A DNA stretch of 63,036 nt, counting the filler, from Vannella sp. (lineage: Eukaryota): NCBI GenBank assembly GCA_023345925.1. It is 6 parts of 6 records of this genome, joined end to end, with 100 filler letters (N's around TTAATTAATTAA, not from the genome) between each part and the next. Parts side by side here need not be neighbours in the genome. Positions count along the whole stretch, not along the records: positions 1 to 12,872 come from JAJQQN010000596.1; 5 more parts are not named here. One strand, 5' to 3'. Position 1 is the first letter of the stretch. Every line of letters begins with the position of its first letter. The translations under genes and the position numbers were made by a program. This document shows, piece after piece, positions 4,636 through 58,329 of the stretch. The notes under the pieces are model-generated. The model worked only from the letters and a program-made list of their open reading frames with translations, searched no databases and was not told the DNA's origin.

Positions 4636-5478
4636 TCAACAGACTGCGCAATCGTTCTGGGACTTGTGCTTCTTGATGTGTCCAATGGTGTAGAGGGAGT
4701 TGTAGTGCACCTCCCCAAAGAAAGAGAGCCAAACGTGCCTCTTAGGAGGAGAAGAATGGCCCCTGGGAAGTACTTCCACGTGGGGAGTGTCTGGGTACGA
4801 TGTGATAAGGTTAATGACGATGTTGAGTCGGTCGGAGACTGCTTGTAGCGTGAGATGATCGCCCCACGAGCGTGACAAAGACATCCGCTCACAGTAACGC
4901 AAATAACTTCCCTCCCGCTCAGCGTCCACGAACTCCACGTAGAACTCAGGGCAAGCACGGAGTTGTTCAACAGCATGCTTTCGGAGAGTACCTGCCTGGC
5001 CTACGCCCTGGAGGAGCTGATCCGCCAATGAAGCAAACTGGCACGCTCCATCCCCATCCACTTGGTACTCTTCCAATCCGTAGAGAGCGAGGCGGCGGCG
5101 GAGAAGCTCCTTGGCAGATAAGAGAGCCTCTCGAGAGGGGACGTTAGCTCGAGTACTTGGCTTTAGAGGGGATGCCGCAAGTGCACTTCCCCTTTCGTCC
5201 ACAATGCGGGGAGGAGGCTGATGCAGGAGAGCCGCAAACCGATGCTCCAACTCCATGGAATCTCCATCCTTCTCCTTCTGTGTCTGAGATCCCTGAGAAC
5301 CATTCTGGCCTGAGACACCTTCTGTTTGGCGGGGCAGCTGAAAGAGGCGATCCCCCTGCTGGCCCTGGGAATGTGGAACAGCTACATCCCTTACCGTTGG
5401 ATAGAGAACGCGCTGCCTATCATCTTTCTCTTGCGGACACCAAAAGACCGCTTCTGTCTCTCTCGTGTCGCCTCCCAT
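4636..5478 (-). CDS. OTU-domain deubiquitinase with C-terminal CaaX-like motif
   Basis: VDGDGACQFASLADQL, WGDHLTLQA, EVHYNSL catalytic motifs; ends HIKKHKSQNDCAVC*. Confidence 0.85.
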   Translation of the reverse strand: MGGDTRETEAVFWCPQEKDDRQRVLYPTVRDVAVPHSQGQQGDRLFQLPRQTEGVSGQNGSQGSQTQKEKDGDSMELEHRFAALLHQPPPRIVDERGSALAASPLKPSTRANVPSREALLSAKELLRRRLALYGLEEYQVDGDGACQFASLADQLLQGVGQAGTLRKHAVEQLRACPEFYVEFVDAEREGSYLRYCERMSLSRSWGDHLTLQAVSDRLNIVINLITSYPDTPHVEVLPRGHSSPPKRHVWLSFFGEVHYNSLYTIGHIKKHKSQNDCAVC

Positions 5479-5524
5479 TCGTGGGTGTGTAAATGGCTTT
5501 CATTAATCATTCGCATCAATGCGG

Positions 5525-5646: not shown

Positions 5647-7254
5647 ATGGCACGGCCAGCTCATCGGCTTGACGATGTAGTCCAACGAGCGAGGAAAACG
5701 AGGATGGCTCTTCAAGAGGGACTCAAAGTGACTCTAACAGAGCTTTCTACCTGCAACAATCCCAAAGATAGAGCACACTACGATGATTACTTCTTGTAAG
5801 TGAACATGACATCGCTCTAACCTCACTAATGCATCCGCAGAGACCTGAAGAAGAGAATGAATCTCGCTTACATCCCCCGAAAGCCGCTTCTGCCCCTCCA
5901 AAACCTTCCTGAGGCACCCATGAAGGCCACTATCAAAGCACGCAGTCCTGTTCACAAGACAGAAGCTCATCACAGCTCTCACACAAGCGAATCCAGTGAT
6001 CTGGTGATCTGCTTGTCTGATGATGAAGCAGAAACGACCTCCCAAGAGGTCTCTCATGAGCTCACTATCACTGAAACAGACACTGAGTCGGAGCAAGAGT
6101 CAGTGGAAGACAAAGAACAAGCAGACGAGGAGGACACCTCCTCGGAGAGTGATGAAGAGGTGGAGCGCGCTGTTCCAGTCTCGATCTCCCCTAAAAGGGG
6201 CGTGGCTCCCAAACCTTCAACTCCTCGACGGTCAAAAGCCTCCCGTAGCTCGACAAGACACTCGCTAGCGATCGTCTGCGGTAGCGACACGGAGACGGAG
6301 CCATCAGACCAGGAGGAGGACCGAGATGATGACGACTCGTTCTCTCTTTCAGGTGCAACAGATTCAACTGGGTCGGTCTTCCTACCCTCTGGGAAAATCG
6401 AGGTCTCCAGTCAGCAAAGGAGAACAAGCTCCTTGTCGCCCCTTCCTTTGGCCAAAGTGCGTAGCTCCTTCTCCTCTTCTCCTATGATGGAGAACAGCAA
6501 CTTTGGGTCGATGAGCCCCGAATTGTCTCCTGATGCAGACAAGAATGATAGCGGCTGCTTTGAATATCAGTCTTCTGGTCTCCCCAAGTACTCTGCTGGT
6601 GAAGAAACGGTCTTCCTGGTGTCTGTGGATGACTCTAGCTTCCCATTCACCAAGCCCAACCCCCAAAGCACCAAGCAAAAGGTGGTCGAGCAGCAAGTGG
6701 AGCCAAAAGGGCCTGCTCCAGTCTCTTCCAAACCCCAGGCGCTTCCCAAAGCACTCCCAGTAATGTCAGCGCTGAAATCACCGCAGGTCTTCTTACCACG
6801 AGTGTCTCCCTCGTTTCAAGCTGTCCGATCTCCTCCGGCCTCTCTCATGCGTTCCCCTCTCTCGCCACTTCCTCGTCGACTACTTGAGGATGAAGGACCT
6901 CAGTCTTACATGCTCACCCCGCCTAAGATTGCCATGGCCAAGGCAGACGACTCGGACGAATCAGATGGAGACGAGAAGGCCATCCCCAAGTGGGCGCAAA
7001 AGGACAACTTGCGTGTTCAAGTGCACCGCCAGTTCACTACCAACCCTGACCCCACTATCATCTTCCCTATCCCCGACACGTGTGACTTGGAAGAGATGTT
7101 CACGGTGTTGGGATCCCCCGCCAGTGCCATCCGGAGAAAGCGCAAACGTCCAAAGAACTTCCTCCGGCAACGAGGAAGCTCCGGCTACTGGGAACGAGAC
7201 CGCGTTACAGAGACAGAGAAGGAGAACTTCCGTAAGAAGATGCGCTACGTCTAG
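5647..7254 (+). CDS. INCENP: Inner centromere protein (IN-box/Aurora-binding domain)
   Basis: ATG 5647, one intron ~5796-5840, joins ORF 5857-7254; C-terminal IPKWAQ..L..QV.RQ..DP..IF..CDLEEMF..RGSSGYW..D IN-box. Confidence 0.75.
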
Positions 7255-7313: not shown

Positions 7314-8900
7314 TTAGTATTTGAGCTCCTTGAAGAGACCTTCGTCTTTGTTGAGGGAGGTGAAGAGGTCTGCATTGAAGGACCCATCCTCGCGTATCAA
7401 ATTGCTTGCCATCTTGTCAATAGCAATGACAGAGAGCACTGTCTGCACGAAGGCATCAATGAGGGTGTCCACAGATAGACCGAGCGAGTTGAAATCACGG
7501 CGATCCATGAGCATCAGGCGAGCCGTCTCGGTGTCCCAGTTGTTGTCTCCTTCCTTCTTGACTGACAAGTTGGTCCCAAGCATAGCCCAGCTGTCTGAGT
7601 CAGGTTCCAGAGTAGAAGCCAAAGGGGAGTGTGCCTTCCTCGCGTAGATCACCAAAGGGCGATAGCAGCCCAGTTCGTAGTCATAATGGATCATCATCCG
7701 CAAGTCAGACACGAAGGTTTGGCACTTCTTGTTGGGGATAGTTCCCACGTGGTAGTATTGGCCGCTTTTCTGGATGGAGCTCCAGTGGTAGTTGCCAATG
7801 AGGGACTGGACGATGTAGTTATCGTAAGGGGAGTCCTCCTTCATGAACTCCTCCAGTTCACGTTGGTTTGTGATGGTATACACTCCTTGTCCAGCATTGC
7901 TGTAAGGCACCTTCACCACCGCGTGTCCACCAAAGCTGCTAACGTACAAAGGAACCTCTGCCTTTGAGACGTCACGAATGGTTTCGGGCGTGCGGATGTG
8001 CACTCCAAGAGTGTTGTGAGCCAAGTCTGCGTTGTAGAAATCGTACGCCTTGGCAGCAAGAGCCTTGTTACGTCCACCAGCCAGACAAGCAGCCAAAGGA
8101 TTGATGATGAGAGTCTTTGTTCTTCCGACAAAGATGCGATCCCAAGGCTTTTGGGTGACGTAGCGGAATGCCGCACGGATGGGAACCCACTCCCCATCCT
8201 GCTTGCGAATCTCCAACACGCGATCCTCGGTGAACCGGCAAGGTGGGGTATCGTCTTGCTGGTACCACTCGGTCAAGTAAACCTCTTCACCAAACACATC
8301 TGCAATGGTGTTGGCGTAACCAGAAGCTTCCATCACGTTTTTGTCGTAGATGACAGCGAGACCACCCTTGGGCAACTTGTCTGCGTTCTCATCAATGTGG
8401 GGCTTGAAGGTCTTTGATATCAGAACCTTGTAGCCTCCATGGTCCTCTAAAGTTCACAAACAAGGTAAGTGGAAATTGCTAGGCAGCCTCAGAGACCAAC
8501 CTTCGTCATCAAGGAGAGGCATCGACTTCTGACCGGAAGGGCAAGAGTTTGTCTCAATGATGATAGTTTGGCGGTTTCTGTGGTTAATTAGTCATGTTGG
8601 TGAGTCTCAAGTAGCTACAATTCGAAGAGAAACTCACCCATCCACGGTGGTGACGTGGAAGAGGTCCGACCCAGCCCAAGGGAAGTGCTCAGGCTTCTCC
8701 GCAAGGATTTTCTCAATCTGAGAAGGATCCACGGAAGGATTCAGATGACAGAAGCGACTCAACATGGACTTGGGGGAGAGATTCATGAAGAAAGCCACCA
8801 TGGGGTGAACATGAGCGTTCAGAGCGCGTTGGTAGAAGTGATGCTCTCGCTCAAAGTCTCCAGGTTTGCAGATAATGGTCTTTCCCTTGCCACCACCCAT
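7314..8900 (-). CDS. Circularly permuted ATP-grasp amide ligase-like protein, 3 exons
   Basis: N-terminal [17 protein letters not shown] (D..ExN metal motif) precedes [14 protein letters not shown] and YIVQSLI (ATP-binding motifs); two GT-AG introns near 8580-8638 and 8447-8500. Confidence 0.7.
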
Positions 8901-9026
8901 CGCTTACGTCACAAGAAACAATGGCGTGCTCCAAAATCCAATGCACCAATCACAGAGCAGCCGAAAGAATCTCCGAAATGAATCTGGTGGCTTGGCGGTT
9001 GGCCTTCTATTTTCTAAGCTTCTTTG
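8901..9026. promoter_or_regulatory. 126-nt bidirectional promoter with CCAAT boxes and CRE-like site
   Basis: CCAAT at 8938-8942 and 8946-8950; TTACGTCA at 8904-8911; separates ATGs at 8900 (-) and 9027 (+). Confidence 0.45.
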
Positions 9027-9901
9027 ATGAACGTGCAGATCATCGGAGAGAAGGAATTTGATACAAGTTATGCCCCCAAGGGTATCTCAGAGATGGAGGA
9101 GATCATGATCTTCCCTCCAACTGCCTCGTACGGAAAGATTGATTTTCTGTGGCACGCCTGCTCCACTTCTTACGATGCCAACCGCACCTACATGTTCATG
9201 TCGGGGTATACTCGTTTGGTCTTACGTCTCGATGGTGGACAGCTCCTATTGAACCACAACAACGAGTCGCACTCCCACGTAGTGAAGCGGGTACGGCTGT
9301 TCTTGAAGAAGACCGTAGTCCTCACCCTGATTTCTCTGTGTAGAACAAGTTCTACGAGTTCTCTGGTGACTGGCTGTCTACTTGTGACGTTGATGGGCCC
9401 GTTACGGACTTCCTTGTGTCCTACAAGACCGGTGAGTTAGTTTGCTTCTTTTGGATCGTTCTCTTCTCCTTCTTACTGATTGTAGGTGAGGTTGCTGTGT
9501 CTGCCAACATCTTCGAAAGCTGTGGGGATGAGGTTGTTGTCCCTCTCTCTTCACATGGAACTTGCACTCTCCTCTACAACGCACAAGGAGAGACAGCAAC
9601 TGTGACCTATCGAGGGGTTGCACACGACCTACCCCCTCGACATGCTCTGTTCTTCAACAAAGGTACGATGGATCCCTTCCCCTCCGATTCGTTAGCGTTA
9701 ACGCCCTTTTAGACGTCTCCTTTGGTAAAAACTCCTCCTAGATACCCTACGAGCGATGACTGACCATCACATGACATCCGTATAGAGGCAGAGGATGAGG
9801 AGGAAGAGTGTTTGATCCAGATGAAAGGAGAGAAGGGCTGTGTTGCCCGGATCGTCAGCGTCAAGTTCTCGGTTGGGAATGACGCGTTAGCCATGCTGTA
9901 G
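9027..9901 (+). CDS. Divergent HutD/Ves-like bicupin domain (possibly N-terminal half of a fusion with the downstream deacylase)
   Basis: Spliced EIMIFPP..DFLWH..S..SGYTRLVLRLDGGQLLLNH..FYEFSGDW..DGPVTDF follows HutD pattern EI..P..DF.WR.S..FPG.DR..F.GD..GP..DF; introns at 9291-9343, ~9432-9485, 9663-9712, 9725-9785. Confidence 0.55.
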
Positions 9902-9933
9902 GTCCACCCTTACCCATCAAAGGCGCGTTTGAA

Positions 9934-11279
9934 ATGACCATGAGAAGCGCTGATGAGTCCCAAATCCATCACGAAGAGGTCACTACGGAGGAAGAGGGGC
10001 GAACCAAGTTGAACTTGTTACCGAGCGCCAAGTACTCTGCTGCAGGCCTTCACCAGTATCGGTGGCAAAGAACCCCTTACACGGCACCAAGCATGGACTT
10101 GAGTGCACAAACAATGGCGCCCCCTCCCATCTCAGTGGACGAGTACGTCCACCTTGGTTGTTGTTCCGTTCGTCCCTGACAGCCTTGAGCAGCTTGGACA
10201 TCAACTCGATGGAGAGAGGGAGAGTTCACACAGCATGGATCAACCTTCTGCAGGACGGATGCGGAGAATGGATGAAGATCCCAGTCATTGTCGCTCGCGG
10301 ATCTCGAGAAGGACCAGTCTTCGGCATTACCGCCGCTGTTCATGGTAACGAACTGAACGGAGTCCCGGGAATCCATCGTTTGATCTCGAACCTGAACGTC
10401 AAGAAGCTCTCAGGAACTGTCATCGCCTGTCCGGTTGTGAACATGTCAGGCTTCTTGGACTACACACGCAACTTCCGTGATGGCAAGGACCTTAATCGAA
10501 CCTTCCCTGGTAAGGCCACGGGAGACGCCTCCCAACAGTACTGCCACGCTGTCATGGTCAAGCTTGTACGCCACATGGAGTACCACATCGACCTTCACAC
10601 AGCCAGCTTTGGTCGAGTGAACTCGTACTACATCCGAGCAGACATGCAGGACCCCATTGTCGCTGACTTTACTTGGCTGTGCAACCCGCAGATCATTCTC
10701 CACAACAGTGGACAAGATGGCACTCTGCGAGGTGCTGCGACAGAAATGGGGATTAAGAGTCTCACCATTGAAGTGGGGAACCCCCAAACCTTCCAGTCCC
10801 GCTTCATCTCGTGGACTTATGCGGGAGTGAGACGCCTTTTGCACTATCTGAAGATGTACCATCTTTCAGATATCTCTGTTGGCCCCCCCAACAAGGAGAA
10901 CATCATTCTTTGCAACGGAGGTTACTGGATGTACACCAGTTGTGGAGGAATCCTTGAGGTTTACCCTCGTAAGAGAGCCCCGCTATGGAGATGACAACAT
11001 TAGACTAACTCCTTGTAGCGGTGAATGCCTTGGTGAAGGCCGGAGACCTTATTGGAAGAGTGAAAACTATCTTCGGCAACATTGCTGAAGAGATTCACGC
11101 TCCAGAGGCCGGTGTTGTTGTTGGGAAGAGCTCCAACCCAGTAGCTTTCGCTGGAGATAGAATTCTTCATCTTGGCAAAGGTGGGAGCATTCTTCGTATT
11201 CTCCTTATACTCTTCTCACTCTCGTTTAGCACACGACATCACCCAACCCCTCGGAAAGGCACACGGAGAGAATTATTGA
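9934..11279 (+). CDS. Succinylglutamate desuccinylase/aspartoacylase (AstE/AspA, M14) zinc hydrolase
   Basis: AAVHGNELNG, DLNRTFPG, IDLHT, IEVG motifs, C-terminal barrel-sandwich with GDRILHLG; three introns; ends GENY* at 11279. Confidence 0.9.
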
Positions 11280-11309: not shown

Positions 11310-12843
11310 CTAACGGAGGAATAAACAGTATAACACCAACACTATCACCATGGAGAGGAGATAAACCAGCCATTTGCGACTCTGAGAAGTTTGCTGGAGG
11401 CTAAGAGAAATGAGAATGATTCTGTTTCCGTTCCATTGGGTGACTTACAAGACCTCCTGATTCCTTTGAATGGTCTCGTTCTTGCGAGCAATCTCTTCCT
11501 GCAAAGCCAGAACCTTCGCAGCGAGTTGAATATCGCGGGAACCTTCCTGTCCGCCTCTGCGTTGCCGAAGAAGATCCGCCTTTTCAGTGGCGGAGGCAGA
11601 AGCCAAAGAAGCTTCCTTCTGCTTGTAGTTTTGTTGGATATTGGCGAAAAGGGAAGCTTTGAGATGCTCCATTTTGATTTCCTCTGGCTGCTGAAGGAAG
11701 AGTTTGAATGACTTTTGGCAGTCCATTCCAATAGAGACTGGCCAAGAGGCCAGGTCCTCTGAAGAGGCGCCCAGCCACTTCAAGAAATACTTGTTTTTCG
11801 TTCCAGGCAAAAGTGACTTATCAACGGGCGGGGGCGGGCTTGGTTCTTCCTTAGGAGGGGAGGATTGACCTTGATTCGCTTGATCCTCTTCCGAAGCATC
11901 AGCTTCACTCTCCTCCTCTGGGGCACTTGAAAAGTCCACAAACTTTGGTGCTATTTCAACATTTGGGAGGGGTTGGACAGCCTCCGGTTCTCTTACAGGC
12001 ACTGTCAGTGTCTCAGGAGGGGTTTGGATCACAATTTCACGAGACTCGTTCTCATTTTGAGTCTCAGGTACATGTTCTGGGGTCGATTGCATCGGGGGAA
12101 CCTCAGAAAAGGAGGGTTCTCTATTCAGGGCGACTTCAAAGTAGTCTGAATGAACGACTTCAGTGTCCAATGAGACGCTTTTCGTTTGAACTTCCTCTGT
12201 TTGAGAGTCATCTATCGCAGTGATTGGTGAAGAGGACTTGTAGCTGGTCGACTCTGCAGAAGGAAGCTCGATGTGAGCTTGAGCCGCGATACATTCCCAG
12301 AGGCGGTGAAGCCACTCCGTCTTCTGAGCCTCTGACTTTGTGAAAATGACAAAAGTACGCTTTGAAGTGAAGATACGGAACTCCACTGCCTTCTGTGAGG
12401 GCGAAAACGAGCAAACGAAGAGTGATTCCCACCTTTGAAGCGCGTGGCGCTCTCGTAAACGTCTTCAACCCTGAGAGTGGCGTGTATGGCGAGGAAGATC
12501 TTCATCCGGTAGGTCTTCCCCATCTTCTTGGTGATCAAGAGCAAGTCGTTGAAGAGAAAGAGGTCTCGACACTTCGCCCTTCGCTCCTTCTCATCCCAAA
12601 GCCCCACCTCTCCTTCTCTTTAATACCTAGTCAATAGGACATCAGCGACAGTCACCCATATCACTCACCCAATGAACCTGCGATCAGCTGCGTTGGTGAT
12701 CAGCTCCTGTTCACCAGTCAGCCCTACAACGCCAACCAAACCAAGATCACAAAGTACAGCACCTTTGGTTTGGGACTAAGCATGTCATAGACGCGCTGAA
12801 CCTCATCAGGAACGCCAGGAGTGAACTTCGGCTTGGCGAACAT
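11310..12843 (-). CDS. PH-domain protein with acidic linker, coiled coil and C-terminal transmembrane tail
   Basis: RDLFLFNDLLLITKK..FVIFTKSEAQKTEWLHRL PH; last exon (11310-11400) gives RKWLVYLLSMVIVLVLYCLFLR*. Confidence 0.7.
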
Positions 12844-12872: not shown

Positions 12873-12972
12873 NNNNNNNNNNNNNNNNNNNNNNNNNNNN
12901 NNNNNNNNNNNNNNNNTTAATTAATTAANNNNNNNNNNNNNNNNNNNNNNNNNNNNNNNNNNNNNNNNNNNN
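12873..12972. other. Artificial contig linker
   Basis: 44 N + TTAATTAATTAA (stops in all six frames) + 44 N. Confidence 0.97.
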
Positions 12973-13505
12973 TATCCTTGCGGATATATTGATTTACAAG
13001 TATAAAATTTAAAGAACAAATATTATCACATCTAGGCAGGATTCTGGCTTAGAGGCGTAAAATAATGAAGCATTTACTCTGGGTTACGTCTAGTTCACTG
13101 GACGAAAGTGGTCGTAACCATGTCTCGTAGCTCGCCACTGTTCCAAGTTCTTGCAGAATGTCCCCTGTTCGTTGTGCTGCAGATTGGGTGGCGAGCGCGG
13201 TTCTCATCTGGAATGAGGAGTTTTCGAGGAGCTCCTTCCAAGGCACCTCCTCAGCCCACAACAGGCTCCGTTCTCTGTAAACCTAGTCAGAAGCGCTAAC
13301 CCATTGCCAATCAAACATCCATGACCGGACGAGGACGCTGATGATTCCCAAACAACCAAGCTCCCTCCCAACCTGAGAAGGGCGTGTCCAGGAGAAGGAG
13401 TTGCTGCGGCATCTGTCGGCAACTGTCAGAAGCCACAACGCCTCTGGAAGGGCCTCCTAGGCGGGTTGATGCTCGAAGCACAACATTTGTTTGTGTCCGT
13501 GTGGG

Positions 13506-15227
13506 ATGAGCCGCTCTCCGCCTCGGAAGTTGCAAAGGGTCCGAGTGTATGCGTGTGACTGGTGTAGGGCGAACAAGAAGAAGTGTAATGGCCTGCACCC
13601 GTGCCAAAGATGTTCCCAGTCGCAGTTGTCGTGTTCCTTCAGCGGTTCTGCTGCTGAGTTGATGACTCGCAGTCCATCACCACCGCATGCTCTCTCTAAA
13701 GAGGTTCAAATGGTTGACTTGACAGTCACAAGAAGGTACTTCCAGCTGTTCAACTCGGCCTTGAGACCCCTCTTCTTGAGCGAAGGCGACTTTGACTACG
13801 CGCTGCTGGCTCAATCGGGCTCAGTAGTGCATCAACTGCAGTCCTATTCGATCCTTGCATCGATGTATTATAACTTTGGAGGCTCTCCGAGTCTCTGCTT
13901 GGACTACGAACATCGGGCGAGGCGCGCTGCCATGGAGTTGTTAGATGAGTTCACTCTGGAGGCTGCAAAAGGGTTCCACTTGTTAGCCTTCCACTACTGG
14001 GGACGCAACAATGACAAAGCCGAGCATTACCGATGCATATCCCTCTCTATCAGTCGGAGAGTTCTAGCAAGAGGAGATGCGGACCAAGAGAAGGCGACTC
14101 GGCTCTATTTGAGCACTCTGGCTATCTCAGAAATATACGAGCCGTCATTAATGAGTGACTACGACCTGCTTTTCCAGCACCAACCGCGAGCAGGTGGCTC
14201 CAGGCCATCCCAACGCGTCGAAATACTGCCTCAACGCGTTCTCCTTCCTTTCCGAGCCAACATCACCCAGAATACGGAATTGAGCACGGAAGAGCTCCAC
14301 TTTTACATTCGCTTCCGTGTGGAGATAAGCTCCTCGTTATTGAAGAGTTCTGGTGTTCGAGGGGAGAACCCTTTGCGAGGTATTGACCCAGATACTTTTC
14401 AACGACTCTCCGATATGTTACAGGAGACTGTTCACATCATGGGCCGACATCATGTCAAGCATCCGTATCCCATTCTCCACCAAGTGGTGGGTCCTCTTCT
14501 TTTTGGGATTCTTTACTGTGCAGGGTTTAGGCACTTGTCTCTTTCTTCCATTCATCAAGCTCTTCTGATTCTGGAGTCAAACCAATCTATCATAGCTCAC
14601 ATGAACCCGTTTGTCATCAGCGTTCTTCAGATGGCTTTCTTTGTATCTTACCACCAATCGGATTATCATCTGGCTCACCGTATTGTTAACCAACAAAAGG
14701 CCTTAGCAAACATATGGCCTTTCGTTCACCAGCAAGTCACTTCAAACTTGCTTATGTTGGAGATTCTCTCAATCCCAACCCCTCTTTCGCACGGCTCATT
14801 GCCAAACAGGGTTAGTGCTGGCCAAGCGCCATCAGTTTATCCGGAGACTGCCAGCTATCCAAGTAACTCATTTAAGGATGAGCTGTTTGAGTTAGAAGGC
14901 GCTAATTCCCACACAAGCCCTTGTTGGTCCACATTTGAGTCTCCACCAGCTCCTTACCCAAGCATATCTAACGTCCAGCCACAATCATCTTGGTCCACAT
15001 TTGAGTCTCCACCAGCTCCTTCCCCAAGCATATTTAACGTCCAGCCACAATCACCTTGGCCCACATTCGACTCTCCACCAGCTCGTTCCCCAAGCAAACC
15101 TAACGCCCAGCCCCAAAGGAGCAACCAAACAAGCTTCTTATGGAACAGCATCGACAAGAAACCAGCCAACCCAAACCGTCCGGAGGAAAGTCCATTTCCG
15201 GGCATTCCATTTGAATTGTCCGGATGA
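13506..15227 (+). CDS. Zn(II)2Cys6 (GAL4-like) transcription factor, intronless
   Basis: ACDWCRANKKKCNGLHPCQRCSQSQLSC binuclear cluster followed by helical middle region. Confidence 0.85.
   Translation: MSRSPPRKLQRVRVYACDWCRANKKKCNGLHPCQRCSQSQLSCSFSGSAAELMTRSPSPPHALSKEVQMVDLTVTRRYFQLFNSALRPLFLSEGDFDYALLAQSGSVVHQLQSYSILASMYYNFGGSPSLCLDYEHRARRAAMELLDEFTLEAAKGFHLLAFHYWGRNNDKAEHYRCISLSISRRVLARGDADQEKATRLYLSTLAISEIYEPSLMSDYDLLFQHQPRAGGSRPSQRVEILPQRVLLPFRANITQNTELSTEELHFYIRFRVEISSSLLKSSGVRGENPLRGIDPDTFQRLSDMLQETVHIMGRHHVKHPYPILHQVVGPLLFGILYCAGFRHLSLSSIHQALLILESNQSIIAHMNPFVISVLQMAFFVSYHQSDYHLAHRIVNQQKALANIWPFVHQQVTSNLLMLEILSIPTPLSHGSLPNRVSAGQAPSVYPETASYPSNSFKDELFELEGANSHTSPCWSTFESPPAPYPSISNVQPQSSWSTFESPPAPSPSIFNVQPQSPWPTFDSPPARSPSKPNAQPQRSNQTSFLWNSIDKKPANPNRPEESPFPGIPFELSG
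14924..15121 (+). repeat. 66-nt coding tandem repeat (3 copies; WSTFESPPAPxPSIxNVQPQSx)
   Basis: ttggtccacatttgagtctccaccagctcct recurs at 14924, 14990 and (variant) 15056. Confidence 0.85.
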
Positions 15228-15318
15228 AACTAATTTAGCAGTGCCTAGTTCTAAATTAAGCTTTGTCGTTATAATTGATTCGATTCAATCCCATTCTTTT
15301 CTTTCACCATTCCTCCAG

Positions 15319-16583
15319 GGTCGAGGCTGACGTGCGCTTGCACTCCCTGCAGGCTGGCCAAGAAGAAGTGCGACGGCGCTTCTCCTTGTGCGCGGTGTTT
15401 GAGTCTGAGAGTGGAATGTTCGTTCCCTTCGGGGCGCTTCCCGTTGATGGTTTCGCCTCAAGAGCAAGCACCACCGGTCGAAGAGGAAAGCTGGGCGAGC
15501 GTGCAGTGGAACGATCCATCACGGGCTACAGATGACTTTGGACGTTGTTTTACCCCTTTCTCTTTCTTTGGTGGGCTGAAGAGTGACCTGCAACAGGCAT
15601 TGCTCCCCGCCCCTCTCATGGTTGAAGTCGCCGTTGTGCGGGCGTACTTGTTGCAGATCCAAGGCATTCTTGAACACGAACGAGATCAACTCATCGTTAT
15701 GGCTACTACGGAGGCTCATCAACTCCACGACGAGTTCTCTTTCGGCGGAGTTCAAACTTTCTCGCTTCTTGCTTTCTACTTTATGACTCAGGACCGCTGC
15801 AAAGGCCGCTTCTATCGTGATATCGCGCTTTCTCTTTGTCGTCAGCTTCGCTCTGTGTCTGATACGTTGCTGCAGCTGCACTTGGCCACTCTGGACATGG
15901 CGGACTTGTTTGACAGGACCCTCGCGCAGGACTTACATCAGGTCAAGGGGGAGCTTCAAAGGTCGACGAACATCTCTCTTGGTGTTGTCTCTTCTATTGA
16001 CTGTCCCTTGACGACACAAGGAATGATGGTTTGGCTGAACTTCCGAGCCGAGTTCGCTCGTCTGGTGAAGGTCAATGAGGACTTTCAGCAGTCAGTTCCC
16101 TTTCAGTTTTCACGAGCAGATGGTCTATATGTTGAAGAGCTGTTTCGCAATGCCGTCACTGCGTTGGGGGTGATCAAGAACGCTCCTCTCTTCCACTATG
16201 TTTGGGCCATCAAATCCTCGTTCAAGGCCCTATTGGCCTCTTCGAGTGGCCAGATCTCTCGAGCAATGGCGTTCTTAGGCAATGTTGTTACTCACTTCGA
16301 GAGCCATCCAACGCTCCTTCCTCTCACAGGAGTCCTGTTTGCCCAACTTTTTGACGCTCTCTTCCGAGTTGCCATTTTCTATCGGGATATCTCTCTGGCC
16401 TCCTCTTTTCATCTACTGCAGAAAGAACTGGTTCAAAAGTATCCTGTTTCAGCTGTTGTAGCTGAAGCGCAGGCGCTGATACTGTCCAGCCTTCAATGTG
16501 ATACTCTCTCATCTGAACCAAAGTCGTCGGTTTGGCTTTCTTCTGTTGAACTTCCTCAGCTTCCACACCTCAGTCCGTACTGA
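15319..16583 (+). CDS. Second Zn(II)2Cys6 transcription factor, tandem paralogue; start codon not found
   Basis: ACTPCRLAKKKCDGASPCARCLSLRVEC in frame upstream of ORF 15399; LHDEFSFGGVQTFSLLAFYF parallels LLDEFTLEAAKGFHLLAFHY; in-frame stop at 15276, acceptor-like ttcctccAG at 15318. Confidence 0.75.
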
Positions 16584-20249: not shown

Positions 20250-21566
20250 TTAGGCATTTCCTCGGAGGAATGACTCTATCTCCTTATGATTTACTGGAGA
20301 AAGACCATCTTTCCATATTTGAGTACCAAAGGGCGCCAAAACTCGTGAGAAAGCGCCGAACGATTCTCCAGGCGCATCGGAAGGCCCATCAAGCACAGAG
20401 AATGCTACAACATCAAAGGCTCCGACGAATCGAGGCATACAGAGAGCCATGATGAACAAGCGAGCGATTTCCTCTGGCGGGTTCGCGTAGACTCCACATC
20501 CGATGGGAGTGGCGACAAAGATTCTGGGACGGGGAGCTTCTCCCATCATCTGCACTGCCATATCAAGCCAGGAGACTATCTTAGCCAGAGTTAGCCGCCT
20601 CTCTCGCTTTGAGATTCTCGAAGTAGAGTTCGGGGCATCAACCAACGGAGGTGACTTGAAAGCCCATCCCAACACGAAGGAGAAGAAGATAGGCTTTGGG
20701 AGGAATGCGTATCCTGAAGGTTCTCCAGATCTAAAAACACAGGCTCCCGGTATTGCAAGTCCTCCAACACAGGGCAAAGGATAGACCCAATCGGATCCAG
20801 ACCGAACATTGTAAGGATCTTCCAGCGCCTCTACAATAGAGGTTCTCCTGTGTAGATTCTCTTCCATCGCTGCGGCACCCTTCTTCCATCCTCCCCCAGG
20901 GAAATTGTACGAGCCATTGACTAATACGGTTATTGACTTGGAATGGACTCCCAAAGCCTCCTGAATCGTCATTGCCGTCTCCAAGACATCGCCATAAGTC
21001 AGCATAGTGCGAGTACCTCCTAAACAAGTGGAAGTGGCCACCAAGTCTCTTCCATACCAGTCAAACACCTCTTCCATGAACTCAGGCGACTCCGCTTCAT
21101 AGTCCACTCTCCTCGTAGATCGGGCGCTTTTTACTAAGCGCTTCCTTGCAAGCTTAACAGTGGTGCCGTCAGGTAAGCTGTACCAGTCCCGTAGTAAGGT
21201 TCCGAGGGTCCCAATCTGGACCAAACACCGAAGTGCCCTTCGATACTGAGGCCCCTGATGGGAGGCCTGCTCAGCTGCTTTGAACCACGCTGAAGGATCG
21301 AAACGAAGTCGCAGGCACTCCTGTTGCTTCTCCTCCCTTAGAATGCTGTTCAAGTCGCTGAAGAACGCGTCATCCATCACCCCCTGCTCCTTGCGACTTG
21401 CCAGCGCCCGCGTGACACCAAAAGGGGCGCTCTTCACTTCCATAGGCCTCTTCTTGCCCTCCTTCACGGCCCTACGCTCCTCCCCAAGGGGTTGATCGTT
21501 CACGCGCCTCTCGAGTCTCTCCCGCTTTGGCATGGAGAAGGGGAATAACGAAGGTATTCCCGTCAT
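20250..21566 (-). CDS. Microbial-type poly(ADP-ribose) glycohydrolase (DUF2263/TIGR02452-like macrodomain), intronless
   Basis: VLVNGS..PGGGWKKGAAAMEENLHRRT and PIGCGVYANPP motifs. Confidence 0.75.
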   Translation of the reverse strand: MTGIPSLFPFSMPKRERLERRVNDQPLGEERRAVKEGKKRPMEVKSAPFGVTRALASRKEQGVMDDAFFSDLNSILREEKQQECLRLRFDPSAWFKAAEQASHQGPQYRRALRCLVQIGTLGTLLRDWYSLPDGTTVKLARKRLVKSARSTRRVDYEAESPEFMEEVFDWYGRDLVATSTCLGGTRTMLTYGDVLETAMTIQEALGVHSKSITVLVNGSYNFPGGGWKKGAAAMEENLHRRTSIVEALEDPYNVRSGSDWVYPLPCVGGLAIPGACVFRSGEPSGYAFLPKPIFFSFVLGWAFKSPPLVDAPNSTSRISKRERRLTLAKIVSWLDMAVQMMGEAPRPRIFVATPIGCGVYANPPEEIARLFIMALCMPRFVGAFDVVAFSVLDGPSDAPGESFGAFSRVLAPFGTQIWKDGLSPVNHKEIESFLRGNA

Positions 21567-21587
21567 TCTCCTTCTGGCGTCCTTCTC

Positions 21588-22119
21588 ATGTCCATCAACC
21601 CTAACCCGACCGTGTTCCCTGTGAAGGAGCTTGCTTCAGGGGCTTGTGGGGAGGCGATTGATGCTCTTGAGGTCTATGGTGTGTTGGATGGGCGTGTAGG
21701 TTGTGGTGTTGATCGGTGTAGATATCATCAGGGACATCAAGGACCCGGAGCACCCATTCACGTTGGAACAGTTGCGCGTGGTCGACGAGAACAACATCAA
21801 CGTAGTCGATCATGGCGAGACTTGCTCCATAGTCATTCACTTTACACCAACAGTAACTCATTGCACACTAGCCTCCCTCATCGGGCTCTGTCTCCGAGCC
21901 AAACTCCAAAGGTACCTCTCCAAACCTGCCAAGATCGACATCTTTGTCGTTCCCGGCTCCCACGAGTCCGAAGGAGACTGTACGTACTGACCAGCTACAT
22001 GGCTTTGCTAAGATGATGCAGTGAACAAGCAAATCAACGACAAAGAGAGAGTTCAAGCCGCCATGGAAAATGAATATCTTCTTCAGGCGATAGAAGGATG
22101 CATTGAAGAGCCTCAATGA
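21588..22119 (+). CDS. CIA2: Cytosolic Fe-S assembly factor MIP18/FAM96
   Basis: INPNP, DIIRDIKDPEHPFTLEQL, FTPTVTHCTLASLIGLC, NKQINDKERVQAAMEN; two introns. Confidence 0.92.
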
Positions 22120-25923: not shown

Positions 25924-26023
25924 NNNNNNNNNNNNNNNNNNNNNNNNNNNNNNNNNNNNNNNNNNNNTTAATTAATTAANNNNNNNNNNNNNNNNNNNNN
26001 NNNNNNNNNNNNNNNNNNNNNNN
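25924..26023. other. Artificial contig linker
   Basis: 44 N + TTAATTAATTAA + 44 N. Confidence 0.97.
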
Positions 26024-38763: not shown

Positions 38764-38863
38764 NNNNNNNNNNNNNNNNNNNNNNNNNNNNNNNNNNNNN
38801 NNNNNNNTTAATTAATTAANNNNNNNNNNNNNNNNNNNNNNNNNNNNNNNNNNNNNNNNNNNN
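38764..38863. other. Artificial contig linker
   Basis: 44 N + TTAATTAATTAA + 44 N. Confidence 0.97.
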
Positions 38864-44061: not shown

Positions 44062-47000
44062 ATGAGCATCATACTCTCCCCACGCAGCCACAAGGAGGTC
44101 AAGAGAGACTCCAAGAGGGCAGGGGAGGAATGGGTTAAGGAGCTCTCCTTTGCTGTAGTGGACGCCTTTGTGGGAGAAAACGAGGAAGGGATGACTCCTT
44201 TGCCCTTCCAGGAGTATCTGTTGGCGACGCAGTTGACGGACACCATCTTACATGAACGTTTCGTTCGTCTGACAAGGCCTTCGTTGAGGGAGGAGGTCAC
44301 AAAGGACCATCCTATCAAAGGTGTCCAAGGGACCGTCCATTTCCACAGCCTGGCGGGACTCTTTGACCGTCTTCTCGCTCTTAAGTAGGGAACTAGTGTA
44401 TGCCCAGATAGAGAGCTAACTGAACTGGCTAGGCTTGAGAGTTTAGACCTGCTTATCATCTGTTTCAGCATTACTTCGCAATCTTCCTTGTCTGCTGCGA
44501 TGAGATGGCTTCCAGTCATCCTCAAAGCTACACCATCTCTTCCAATACTCCTGGTAGGACTCCAGCTGTCACCTGCAGTCTCCCTGATCTAACATGGCAG
44601 CCCAAAGGTTGGAGATCACGTAGAACAGCGAATCACAGGCTCTCCTCAGCCTGGCTTTGTACAAATGGAAGAAGTAAGGCTCCATCTCTCTCTTATCACT
44701 GCGTGTGGACTCAAAGGGGCCAAAAGGGGAGAGAATCAGCAAGGAAGATGGCCGCCTACGACTACCTGGAGGTCAGCACCACTCAATTCACCGGAATCTT
44801 ACCACTCTTGGACTTTGCTATCAACTATGCACTTCAAGGACGTGCGAGACAGCTGCCTGACTACTCCATGACCGAAAAAAAGGCGAAAAGAGCCTTTCAG
44901 GAAGCTATTTCTCTCTTCTACAGCTATCCAAGTGCCGATACGGAGCAGAACTTCCTCAAGTTACTCAAGAGGAACACTTCTAAGCAGCAGAAAACGAGCA
45001 GAGTGGACTTATCTGGTCTCAATTTGACGGAGGAACGAATTGACTTTCTCTTCTCTGACCATAATCTCAAGTCCTTGTGTTCCCAAGACGGGATAGAACT
45101 GGACTTATCGCTGAATCGACTTTGCTGCATCCCCCAGCAAGTCATTCAGAACCTTAACAAGATTATTTGGCTTTCTGTGGAGGGGAATCAAATTCACAGC
45201 CTTCCGGTGCAGTTAGTTGACTTGGAAGTATTCAAATGGAGAGGAAATCCTCTCTCATCCATTCCATCTTCATTTCGAGAGGACCACGATAACTGGGAAC
45301 GAGTGCGTTGGTATCTCAGCAGTATTTCTCTGGGCTCTGCCCCTTGGACTGAGGCGAAGATACTTCTTGTTGGAGAGGAAGGAGTCGGTAAATCTACACT
45401 CCTAAAGTGCCTCCAGTCTCCCAAGAACAAAACAGACACGAAGGAAAACCTGTCAACTAACGGCATCCAAGTCAGCCGCTCCATGGAACTCGATGCAAGT
45501 AGTCCTGTCCGGTTCAATGTTTGGGATTTAGGAGGGCAGGAGGTATTCTACCCCACCCATCAGTTCTTTTTGACATCCAATAGCATCTATCTCCTGCTTT
45601 TCGACCTTTCTTCGCCCTCCAAATCCAACGCTCGGATGGAGTATTGGATGCAGCTGATTCGGTCGTTATCGCAGAACAGTCGGCGGGCTCCCATCTTTAT
45701 TGTTGGCACTCATGCAGATAATCCTTCTCTAACGGACGCAAAGATATCTGCTCGGTTGAACGAAGTGGCGAAACACTTCCGACCTGCCACTTATCGGGGG
45801 ATGCAGACAATCCATTCTATTTCGTGCAAGAATGGACAAGGAATGAGCGAGCTTAAGGAGCGCATCAGTGCCTTGACACAAGAGTCCTGGTTCCAGCAAT
45901 GTGTTGCTCTCTCGTGGCATCACCTGCATGAGCTTATCTCAACAAAGAGGGAAGGTGGAATCGATAGGGTCTCGTGGGCAGTCTATTCTGGTTGGGCAGA
46001 GCAAGTAGGAGTCCCAGCAGTCGAGCTAAGAGCTTGCACCACCTTCCTCAACGACGTCGGAAGTATAATCTACTTTGAAGGGAAGCATAGCTCCCCTTCC
46101 GTCCTGGTCATTCTCAATCCGCAGTGGCTAGCTGATGTAATGTCCAGCTTAATAACTTTCCGCCACAAGTGGATCAAAGAAGGTCGCATCTTCGAAGATG
46201 ACTTGCGCCTTCATGTCCTTTCAGAATTTCCACAAGAGACGCACGACGAGCTTATTGGACTATTTGAGAAGTTCTCGGTCATTTATCGAAGCAAAGTGGA
46301 GGGGCGAAGCGTTGTTATCGTTCCATGCTTATTGAATGCACAATTGGACAGCTCACAAAAAGTGATTGCGGATTCTCTGTGGCCAAGCGTGATTGCACCG
46401 GGAGAAGTGTGTTATGGGCGAATCTATGCATTCCCGTTCATTCCTGTGGGCTTTTTGGAGAAGATTATCGTTCGGGTGATCCGCTCGCCTTCTCTGTCTC
46501 CTCATATTCTCTGGCGCAATGGGCTGCTAGCTACATTTGATAATCAAGTGGTTCGCCTGGAGTTTGAACAGGAGCGGAACGTGTTCTCGATTCTAGTTCG
46601 CGAACCTGTGGCTGAAGGTAACTTCTCACAGCGTTCCTTGGCATTAAGAGAGATCACAGATGCCGTGGAAACGCTACTTGAGTGTTTCTTTCGGATGGAG
46701 ATTGAGCGGCTGATTCCTTGTAGTCACTGTCTCACTGCTAACGAGAGCATGCCGACCCTCTTTCATTATCAGAGAGTGATTGAAGCAACAACTCAAGGAA
46801 CACTCCAGTGTCACGGAAAAGAAATCACGCTGGTCCAGCTAGCTCCAGATATTGCTTTTGCTGACATGGTTATCATTCCTCCCTCCCAAATCGTTTTGGG
46901 AGCGAAAATCGGAGAAGGTGGGTTTGGAACTGTGTACTTGGGGACGTTTAATGGCATCCAAGTGGCAGTGAAAGAGCTTCTCCCTAAAGAAGAGGAAAAC

Positions 47001-47882
47001 GCATCTGAATTGTTCCAAAGTTTCCAACAAGAAGCGTTCTTGATGAGCTGTCTTGACCATCCTAATCTGGTCAAGTTGTTTGGTATTAGCACGCATCCAC
47101 GGCTCCGTATGGTCTTAGAGCTTGTCCCTTGTGGAGACCTCTTTGACTTTCTTCACCCGAAGGGCCCTTCTGGTGAAAGAGGGCAGATCTCCCGTTTCCA
47201 TTTGCGTTGGGAGCTTCGTCTCCGGTTGGCATTTGACATTGCAAGAGGAATGCTTTATCTTCAGAGCTTTAACCCTCCCATCGTCCATCGAGACTTGCGC
47301 TCTCCCAATATCTTCCTTTCTTCTCTCAACCCACAGAGCGATGTTTGCGCAAAAGTAGCAGACTTTGGACTATCCCGGATGGTGGCACCGGATTTAGGGG
47401 GTGCATTGGGGACCTGGCAGTGGCTAGCACCTGAAGTATTCAACGCCAGCGGCAATGATCGATACGATGAACGAGCTGATTGCTTTAGCTTCGCTATTGT
47501 GTGTTGGGAGTTAGCTTCTCGTGAATTTCCTTACTCTGAGTTCGAGCGCAACCCAAAGTACTCTTCCATTCAGCCAGATGGATCCTGGCAAGTCAACCTT
47601 TTCAGTCTGAAGCAAGCCATCTCGGATGGTCTCCGACCAAGCTTCCCCCCTGAAAACGAAAAGGTCCCTCCTGCATTTGAAGCTCTGATTAAGCGCTGTT
47701 GGGACGGTAACCCGAAGAAGAGACCCGCTTTCCCTGAGATTGTAGCGGAGATCCGGACGATGATAGACTCTGCTTATCTTCCACCTCTCCACCAAATGGG
47801 CATCAACACACTCCCGATTCTCCAATACGGTTTACGAAGGCTTGGAGGATTGGTCAGGTTCTTTGGGAAGAAAGACGTTTAA
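44062..47882 (+). CDS. Roco protein: degenerate Rho-like domain - LRR - Roc - COR - TKL kinase (5' start approximate)
   Basis: Roc GEEGVGKST, WDLGGQ, VGTHAD; COR LNPQWLADVM; kinase IGEGGFG, VAVK, HRDLRSPN, DFG, APE; upstream exons splice into Rho-like sequence. Confidence 0.88.
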
Positions 47883-48766: not shown

Positions 48767-48866
48767 NNNNNNNNNNNNNNNNNNNNNNNNNNNNNNNNNN
48801 NNNNNNNNNNTTAATTAATTAANNNNNNNNNNNNNNNNNNNNNNNNNNNNNNNNNNNNNNNNNNNN
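48767..48866. other. Artificial contig linker
   Basis: 44 N + TTAATTAATTAA + 44 N. Confidence 0.97.
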
Positions 48867-58229: not shown

Positions 58230-58329
58230 NNNNNNNNNNNNNNNNNNNNNNNNNNNNNNNNNNNNNNNNNNNNTTAATTAATTAANNNNNNNNNNNNNNN
58301 NNNNNNNNNNNNNNNNNNNNNNNNNNNNN
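58230..58329. other. Artificial contig linker
   Basis: 44 N + TTAATTAATTAA + 44 N. Confidence 0.97.

What the first reader, a model, noticed from the sequence alone, without database searches (positions are those of the whole stretch)
7314..11279. Candidate undescribed peptide make/break system: circularly permuted ATP-grasp ligase head-to-head with HutD cupin + AstE/AspA deacylase
Seen: three bacterial-flavoured, intron-containing coding units on one contig share a 126-nt divergent promoter. The ligase has its D..ExN motif ([13 protein letters not shown]) N-terminal to the VKxP..GxGV and YIVQ motifs, i.e. permuted order; the hydrolase has intact HGNE/DLNR/DLH/E residues. Established: bacterial ATP-grasp amidoligases (RimK-like and permuted types) are often encoded beside M14 AstE/AspA hydrolases, and HutD cupins bind small histidine-pathway metabolites. 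Inference: a co-regulated eukaryotic module that synthesises and hydrolyses an acidic-amino-acid peptide, polymer or acyl-amino acid (nitrogen store, osmolyte or protein tag), with the cupin as sensor or allosteric domain. I know of no characterised eukaryotic pathway with this trio.
Basis: partly seen in the sequence, partly recalled or inferred. Interest (0 to 1): 0.88.

Follow-up and report, generated by a model that had tools for sequence, protein, structure and literature searches.

The report
Ancient amide make-and-break gene pair
This protist has two back-to-back genes, an unclassified ligase with a predicted circularly permuted ATP-grasp fold and a zinc-hydrolase-family gene fused to a cupin, whose relatives travel together in bacteria and co-occur in early fungi and amoebae, and which likely build and cleave one still unidentified small peptide-like metabolite that is probably not glutathione.

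Summary
The motifs, permuted order and 126-nt head-to-head gap are real, but there are two genes, not three: a 490-aa ligase and a ~611-aa HutD-AstE/AspA fusion. The ligase family has no Pfam or NCBIfam match above cut-off, yet 3,915 relatives. A 78%-identical homologue models as a circularly permuted ATP-grasp, closest to the ATP-grasp-type GshA 3K1T (Z 17.4). Among 121 genomes of one Saprospiraceae-type family, the hydrolase orthologue (62) and a GshB-like ligase (59) occur only in the 70 that carry the ligase. In Myxococcota the hydrolase lies beside it in 17 of 18 loci, 5 head-to-head. Sixteen of 16 Myxococcota genomes tested also hold canonical gshB, so this is probably not a replacement glutathione route. 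Thirteen eukaryotic ligases (amoebae, heteroloboseans, fungi) form one supported clade; in six named species the two genes co-occur but look unlinked. Best reading, inferred: the ligase makes a gamma-glutamyl-amino-acid amide and the hydrolase cleaves it. The cupin-as-sensor idea is weakened here, since this copy lost the HutD signature. This scan noted the bacterial operon before on other DNA; no characterisation turned up in ten paper searches.

The parts
8638..8900 (-). Ligase exon 1 (ATG at 8900); carries D79 of the permuted metal-binding segment
   Evidence: colinear with P0002/P0003
8501..8577 (-). Ligase exon 2; carries E96 and N98 (ExN motif)
7314..8446 (-). Ligase exon 3 to stop; pre-ATP-grasp, lid (K292) and C-terminal sheet (D361, R363, R383, N406)
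8901..9026 (.). 126-nt gap between divergent start codons; two CCAAT words; presumed shared promoter (untested)
9027..9897 (+). HutD/Ves-like bicupin domain of the fusion gene; exons 9027-9290, 9344-9431, 9486-9662, 9713-9724, 9786-9897; lacks the WKNG signature
   Evidence: fold of homologue P0121 matches 1yll, 5v00
9898..9947 (+). Predicted intron that removes the apparent cupin stop and fuses cupin to hydrolase (acceptor may be 3 nt earlier)
   Evidence: in-frame join; colinear with P0121; no read support
9948..10142 (+). Linker exon; low model confidence in the homologue (residues 219-279)
10193..11279 (+). AstE/AspA (M14-like) zinc hydrolase domain; exons 10193-10968 (acceptor may be 10190), 11019-11180, 11230-11279

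Best explanation
The locus is two divergent genes, a ligase with a predicted circularly permuted ATP-grasp fold and a HutD-AstE/AspA fusion with an intact zinc-hydrolase motif set, which likely form a synthesis-and-turnover pair for one small amide, most likely a gamma-glutamyl-amino-acid dipeptide that is not part of glutathione synthesis. Inferred steps: the ligase would use ATP and Mg (D79, E96, N98, K292) to make an acyl phosphate on the side-chain carboxyl of glutamate and condense it with an amino acid; the zinc hydrolase would clamp that amino acid's free carboxylate (R375, N384, R385) and cleave the amide (E476), returning the amino acids. In most bacteria a GshB-like second ligase would extend the dipeptide by one residue. 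The N-terminal module (HutD in fungi, Balamuthia and here; SPX in Acanthamoeba) would gate hydrolysis by nutrient state, which would suit a soluble nitrogen or amino-acid reserve; in this organism that module may be altered or dead.
For: Shown: AlphaFold2 model of P0003 (78% identical; pLDDT 93.7) has 3K1T, a putative gamma-glutamylcysteine synthetase, as best VIA match (Z 17.4, rmsd 4.0, 334 aligned, model 48-463), above ArgX (13.8) and YgiC (12.9); canonical ATP-grasps align only from about residue 138. ESM Atlas: 6 of 30 hits are PF08886 GshA clusters (score 0.91, 159 shared features). Catalytic-type residues are conserved in 44-49 of 49 diverse rows. Co-occurrence in 121 genomes: hydrolase orthologue in 62 of 70 ligase-positive and 0 of 51 negative; GshB-like in 59 of 70 and 0 of 51. 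Adjacency: hydrolase in 53 of 80 and 58 of 80 loci, GshB-like in 56 of 80 and 54 of 80, many contigs truncated; Myxococcota 17 of 18 and 14 of 18, 5 head-to-head. The second ligase keeps the Arg, Asp, Glu and Asn set of GshB (assignment to E. coli residues recalled) but scores below equivalog cut-offs. The hydrolase's carboxylate-binding position is His in 105 of 109 loci with a GshB-like neighbour, mixed in 16 without, and Arg in 115 of 115 readable eukaryotic fusions, as expected if it reads the ligases' product. Precedent: CphZ, an AstE-fold enzyme, cleaves the isopeptide beta-Asp-Arg and binds the C-terminal carboxylate with R102/N112/R113 (PMC9974463, passages); it is a fold hit. HutD is implicated in handling formylglutamate (PMC8034625, passages).
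Against: No substrate is shown. 3K1T is only 14% identical and is itself 'putative'. Fold does not fix chemistry: the permuted ligase Cp1B joins a dicarboxylic acid to an amino acid (PMC12568646, passages), and the hydrolase's nearest solved folds are N-acyl-amino-acid deacylases (3cdx, DoeB). Profile alignment of the ligase with the GshB-like family is weak (probability 0.3-5%), so the residue equivalences rest on motifs. Co-occurrence counts are not independent (related genomes, some duplicate loci). 8 of 70 ligase genomes lack a full hydrolase orthologue and 11 lack the GshB-like gene. In 6 of 6 named eukaryotes with both genes the longest-contig figures differ, so the genes look unlinked. 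No long hydrolase homologue from Naegleria, Acrasis or Rozella was among the 120 listed. The window cupin lacks the WKNG motif found in 102 of 120 fusions.
Confidence: 0.45

Rival explanations
1. Same make/break logic, but the acyl donor is another acid: aspartate (beta-aspartyl dipeptide) or a dicarboxylic acid such as succinate, giving an N-acyl-amino acid.
For: Nearest solved hydrolase folds are desuccinylase/deacetylase-type and CphZ; permuted ligase Cp1B uses dicarboxylic acids (PMC12568646; fold hit).
Against: Best fold match and Atlas neighbours are GshA-type; the usual partner is GshB-like, a family known for gamma-glutamyl substrates; DoeB, AstE and aspartoacylase equivalog scores are far below cut-off.
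Confidence: 0.22
2. The ligase tags a protein or peptide C-terminus or side chain (RimK-like) and the M14 enzyme removes the tag.
For: Weak RimK-family scores (E 0.045-0.1); G-x-D motif as in RimK/GshB; RimK-like genes sit beside a different AstE clade in the same genomes.
Against: No recurring substrate gene in the neighbourhood clusterings (ORFs under 90-120 aa were not examined); 54-60% identity from bacteria to eukaryotes fits a small invariant substrate; the hydrolase clade is separate from the RimK-associated one.
Confidence: 0.12
3. The ligase makes a peptide- or glutamyl-polyamine conjugate, like glutathionylspermidine synthetase/amidase or YgiC/YjfC.
For: Arginine decarboxylase, agmatinase and DHS-like genes in 16 of 80 and 10 of 80 loci, four times inserted between ligase and GshB-like gene; YgiC and GspS are fold hits at Z 12-13.
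Against: No such recurring family in the 18 Myxococcota loci; the hydrolase keeps the carboxylate clamp, which a polyamine leaving group would not need; conserved R383 aligns with the GshB-like Arg (weak).
Confidence: 0.1
4. The ligase is a fourth type of gamma-glutamylcysteine synthetase and the bacterial trio is an alternative glutathione pathway.
For: GshA-type fold; GshB-like neighbour; in the 121-genome family PF04262 was found in 0 of 121 and a strong PF04107 match in 3 of 121, none among the 59 GshB-like genomes.
Against: 16 of 16 tested ligase-positive Myxococcota genomes have a separate canonical gshB above cut-off and 15 of 16 a PF04107 match; the hydrolase, not the GshB-like gene, is the most constant partner. 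Whether the eukaryotes also hold canonical GCL was not tested.
Confidence: 0.08

Closest known systems
ATP-grasp-type glutamate-cysteine ligase GshA (PF08886; PDB 3K1T)
   Same: Best structural match over the whole permuted chain (Z 17.4, 334 aligned); nearest named bacterial family in the Atlas; works with a GshB-type enzyme.
   Different: 14% identity, no PF08886 score; travels with an M14 hydrolase; present beside a canonical glutathione pathway in Myxococcota; present in eukaryotes.
Glutathionylspermidine synthetase/amidase, YgiC/YjfC, eukaryotic glutathione synthetase, Cp1B (permuted ATP-grasp group)
   Same: Same permuted topology; GspS couples synthesis with a hydrolase.
   Different: No Pfam match; G-x-D where those enzymes have R-x-D (their motif is recalled, not tested); the hydrolase is a separate M14 zinc enzyme.
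RimK plus AstE/AspA-family peptidase pairs
   Same: ATP-grasp ligase next to an AstE/AspA hydrolase; such pairs exist in the same genomes.
   Different: Ligase permuted, 12-13 bits against RimK cut-off 143; hydrolase in a separate clade with its own motif after the third zinc ligand.
CphZ, DoeB/EutE, AstE, aspartoacylase (PF24827)
   Same: Fold, zinc ligands, catalytic Glu and carboxylate clamp.
   Different: About 15-21% structural identity; all equivalog scores far below cut-off; fused to HutD or SPX in eukaryotes.
Batrachochytrium 'succinylglutamate desuccinylase' XP_006682402.1 (PMC5005798)
   Same: It is fusion homologue P0168.
   Different: That paper lists it only as a bacterial transfer candidate with unknown pathway; the passages read show no mention of the cupin, the ligase or a function.

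Membership tests
Circularly permuted ATP-grasp ligases | ATP-grasp fold | tested here: met
   Model of 78%-identical P0003; all top Foldseek and VIA rows are ATP-grasp enzymes
Circularly permuted ATP-grasp ligases | Metal-binding D..ExN segment N-terminal to pre-grasp and lid domains | tested here: met
   D79/E96/N98 precede K292; permuted enzymes align from residue 13-48, canonical ones from about 138; N-terminal segment aligns to the C-terminal D..ExN of GshB-like proteins, low probability
Circularly permuted ATP-grasp ligases | ATP-dependent amide formation | not testable with these tools
   needs assay
GshA, ATP-grasp type (PF08886) | Score above the family cut-off | tested here: not met
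   no PF08886 row for window exons or 30+ homologues
GshA, ATP-grasp type (PF08886) | Same full-length permuted fold | tested here: met
   3K1T Z 17.4, rmsd 4.0, 334 aligned
GshA, ATP-grasp type (PF08886) | Supplies the first glutathione step where other GshA types are missing | tested here: inconclusive
   fits the Saprospiraceae-type family, not Myxococcota
GspS/YgiC, CP_ATPgrasp_1/2, eukaryotic GSH synthetase | Pfam score above cut-off | tested here: not met
   no rows at E up to 10 or 0.1
RimK family (TIGR00768) | Score above 143.4 bits and canonical domain order | tested here: not met
   11.9-13.1 bits; permuted order
AstE/AspA (PF24827) | Score above cut-off and fold | tested here: met
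   113.5 bits against 25; TM 0.77 to 3cdx/6twm for homologue P0121
AstE/AspA (PF24827) | H-E-H zinc ligands, catalytic Glu, R/N/R carboxylate clamp | tested here: met
   H333, E336, H418, E476, R375, N384, R385; roles from PMC9974463
DoeB, AstE or aspartoacylase equivalogs | Score above NCBIfam cut-off | tested here: not met
   homologue P0121: 60 vs 402.7, 17 vs 305.7, 21 vs 180
CphZ | Acidic D222/E223 pocket for Arg/Lys | not tested
   no residue-level structural alignment was obtained
HutD/Ves (PF05962) | Score and bicupin fold | tested here: met
   P0121 51.4 bits against 25; 1yll TM 0.88, 5v00 0.79; window exon 1 alone 23.8 bits
HutD/Ves (PF05962) | Conserved WKNG motif shared with solved HutD | tested here: not met
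   present in 5fcc/1yll alignments and 102 of 120 fusions; absent from the window protein and P0121

The most novel reading that the evidence does not exclude
An unrecognised core metabolite pathway, acquired once before amoebae, heteroloboseans and fungi diverged and since lost from most model eukaryotes, makes a glutathione-like gamma-glutamyl peptide as a soluble nitrogen reserve whose breakdown is switched by interchangeable nutrient sensors (acyl-glutamate-sensing HutD or phosphate-sensing SPX); this locus would keep the ancestral bacterial head-to-head arrangement.
Probability: 0.25. Interest if true: 0.85.

Novelty: new variant of a known kind. Interest (0 to 1): 0.62.

Why it matters
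A 3,915-member enzyme family with 54-60% identity between bacteria and eukaryotes and no family model points to a widespread metabolite nobody appears to have named. The locus gives a short, testable substrate list and a matched hydrolase, and suggests that early eukaryotes carried a small-peptide storage or turnover pathway separate from glutathione, still present in early-diverging fungi and amoebae.

Tried and rejected
No genome is held for the window, so a third partner or canonical GCL in this organism could not be sought. RNA evidence was uninformative: one run, one 244-nt contig, no joints. Pfam, NCBIfam and PDB sequence searches did not classify the ligase. A search for longer ligase forms gave 8 hits and no fusion to a hydrolase or second ligase; finding none is weak evidence. 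Attempts to obtain PF08886 sequences for a profile comparison failed: 0 of 5, 0 of 5 and 0 of 40 genomes, with no control ringing, and a motif scan of viral contigs found nothing; absence of PF08886 from these genomes is therefore not established. Three separate genes: rejected. Joins from the donor at 9872 to acceptors 9902 or 9923: out of frame. Recent bacterial transfer or contamination: rejected by introns, eukaryotic neighbours and the tree. Bd 'glutathione synthetase' of PMC5005798 as the eukaryotic third partner: not supported, its tree text lists actinobacteria; not tested further. 10.64898/2026.04.15.718621 (abstract and outline) concerns another enzyme. The first ligase tree was the quick one; the careful one used 30 rows chosen by me and left out the divergent representatives. 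No complex prediction was run, since binding is not claimed.
Full report
Setting. The window is a eukaryotic assembly of contigs joined by N runs, the first at 12873; no genome is held. Neighbours include an INCENP-like gene, an OTU protease, a Roco kinase and Zn2Cys6 factors. The ligase groups with amoebozoan rows at modest support (80/79), so an amoeboid protist is likely; one member of the closest fusion cluster is labelled Dicrateria by its source, so the host is not settled.

Anatomy. The minus-strand gene splices to 490 aa. The plus strand gives one ~611-aa protein: an intron at 9898-9947 removes the apparent cupin stop, and the model is colinear with P0121, 57% identical in the cupin and 78% in the hydrolase. 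Of 120 listed long homologues (155 found), 105 carry both HutD and AstE/AspA; they come from Mucoromycota, chytrids, an aphelid and Balamuthia. The two ATGs are 126 nt apart. The one RNA run available gave no splice evidence.

The ligase. Exon 3 finds 3,915 relatives, none of the 120 listed with a Pfam domain, at 54-60% identity in Saprospiraceae-type bacteria, Naegleria, Acrasis, Balamuthia, Stygamoeba, Rozella and Mucorales, and in Myxococcota. Pfam, NCBIfam and PDB sequence searches give nothing above cut-off. I folded P0003 (78% identical) as a full-length stand-in: pLDDT 93.7. Foldseek's best rows are permuted ATP-grasp ligases. VIA ranks 3K1T, a putative gamma-glutamylcysteine synthetase, first (Z 17.4, 334 aligned), with canonical ATP-grasp enzymes aligning only from about residue 138, which confirms the permutation. 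The Atlas's named neighbours are an archaeal ATP-grasp cluster (0.93) and PF08886 GshA (0.91). D79, E96, N98, K241, K292, Q327, D361, R363, R383 and N406 are conserved in 44-49 of 49 diverse rows. Their equivalence to GshB-type residues is motif-level only (hhalign 0.3-5%).

Bacterial context. In 80 genome loci the hydrolase orthologue lies nearby in 53 and a GshB-like ligase in 56; in 80 metagenome loci, 58 and 54. In 121 genomes of the family of G001 (Portibacter, L044) the ligase is in 70; the GshB-like gene (E below 1e-100) in 59 and the hydrolase orthologue (E at most 1e-135) in 62, all ligase-positive, against 0 of 51 ligase-negative genomes; thresholds were set by me at the score gaps, and one mid-scoring hydrolase lies in a ligase-negative genome. 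In the phylum of G004 (Myxococcota by record title) 19 of 121 genomes have the ligase; of 18 loci fetched (G004 and G271 not refetched), 17 have the hydrolase alongside (11 same strand, 5 head-to-head, 1 convergent) and 14 the GshB-like gene. Related genomes are not independent, so these counts show linkage, not a probability.

Not glutathione. The Saprospiraceae-type family lacks PF04262 (0 of 121) and mostly lacks strong PF04107 (3 of 121), which first suggested a replacement GshA. But 16 of 16 ligase-positive Myxococcota genomes tested hold a separate canonical gshB above cut-off, and 15 of 16 a PF04107 match, while the operon's GshB-like proteins stay below cut-off and resemble PRK12458. 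Polyamine genes occur in 16 of 80 and 10 of 80 loci and not as a recurring family in Myxococcota.

The hydrolase and cupin. The P0121 model (pLDDT 78, disordered linker) matches DoeB, 3cdx and CphZ in one domain and HutD (1yll, 5v00) in the other. The hydrolase clade is distinct from RimK-associated AstE proteins (quick tree). In CphZ, R102, N112 and R113 bind the substrate's C-terminal carboxylate (PMC9974463, passages); the window keeps R375, N384, R385. The last position is His in 105 of 109 bacterial loci with a GshB-like neighbour, mixed in 16 without (6 His, 3 Arg, 7 other), and Arg in 115 of 115 readable eukaryotic fusions (5 of 120 unreadable). HutD is implicated in limiting formylglutamate, function otherwise unknown (PMC8034625, passages). 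Its WKNG motif is in 102 of 120 fusions but not in the window protein. Acanthamoeba P0413 and P0239 carry SPX in that slot.

Eukaryotic history. In a careful 30-row tree, 13 eukaryotic ligases form one clade (97/97) with heterolobosean (100/100) and fungal-Rozella (100/100) subgroups; the long Trichuris row falls outside, and a clade including it is not rejected (p-AU 0.24). This fits one early acquisition, though transfer among eukaryotes is not excluded. Six named species hold both genes (Absidia, Hesseltinella, Dichotomocladium, Lichtheimia, Bifiguratus, Balamuthia), with different longest-contig figures in all six, so they look unlinked. In a close relative, exon-sized pieces of both genes (P0400, P0406) are recorded on contigs of the same length, 25,678 nt: circumstantial support for linkage beyond this window.

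Mechanism. Shown: gene structure as a model, fold class, intact catalytic motifs, linkage and co-distribution. Inferred: amide synthesis by acyl phosphate, glutamate as donor, an amino acid as acceptor, cleavage by the partner, extension by the GshB-like enzyme in bacteria, nutrient gating and storage. I put the make/break pairing at about 0.8 and the gamma-glutamyl product at 0.45.

Novelty. Ten full-text searches showed no paper on this family or operon, judged from listings. The Bd fusion gene appears only as a transfer candidate (PMC5005798: passages, section 12, supplement passages). Cp1B precedent: PMC12568646, passages. Iyer et al. 2009 on amidoligases was not held (reference seen in PMC7824862); it and its supplements may list this family. 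Earlier scan notes describe what reads as the same bacterial operon; none covers the eukaryotic HutD fusion. Verdict: a new variant of a known kind, interest 0.62.

Noticed in passing
window 12873-12972, 25924-26023, 38764-38863, 48767-48866, 58230-58329: Five identical-pattern N blocks (44 N, 12 nt, 44 N): the window is several contigs joined, so genes beyond 12872 are not true neighbours.
   Followed up: yes
window 5830-7254 (+), 4636-5499 (-), 11445-12464 (-): Flanking genes: INCENP ARK-binding protein, OTU protease, and an acidic protein with a weak PH-like match; unrelated to the pair.
   Followed up: partly
window 8901-9026: Two CCAAT words in the gap against 0.25 expected per 126 nt; weak hint of a shared promoter element.
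   Followed up: partly
window 11268-11279; P0121-P0240: The fusion ends in a conserved xENY tail; KENY in 100 of 120 homologues, absent from the bacterial hydrolases aligned. Role unknown.
   Followed up: no
P0413, P0238, P0239, P0157: The same hydrolase is fused to SPX in Acanthamoeba and an unnamed eukaryote, and to a weakly matching other cupin in P0157.
   Followed up: partly
L214:3016-6916, L215:2244-5826: A second PRK12458-like system in Myxococcota: N-formylglutamate amidohydrolase fused to a GshB-like ligase, next to a MATCAP peptidase.
   Followed up: partly
L004, L054, L063, L069: Arginine decarboxylase, agmatinase and a DHS-like gene inserted between the ligase and the GshB-like gene; a GNAT-nitrilase fusion in 8 of 80 loci.
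   Followed up: partly
L223-L227: A paralogous hydrolase subclade in Saprospiraceae-type genomes, with Arg at the clamp and no ligase within the fetched flanks.
   Followed up: partly
P0275, P0439, P0296, P0435: Divergent ligases in the nematode Trichuris suis and in Fonticula; a probable tandem double ligase in Entophlyctis.
   Followed up: no
window 13470-16580 (+), 20253-21635 (-), 44439-47879 (+), 49060-50010 (+): Two tandem Zn2Cys6 factors, a microbial-type PARG, a Roco kinase and an Mlo-like protein on other contigs of the window.
   Followed up: no
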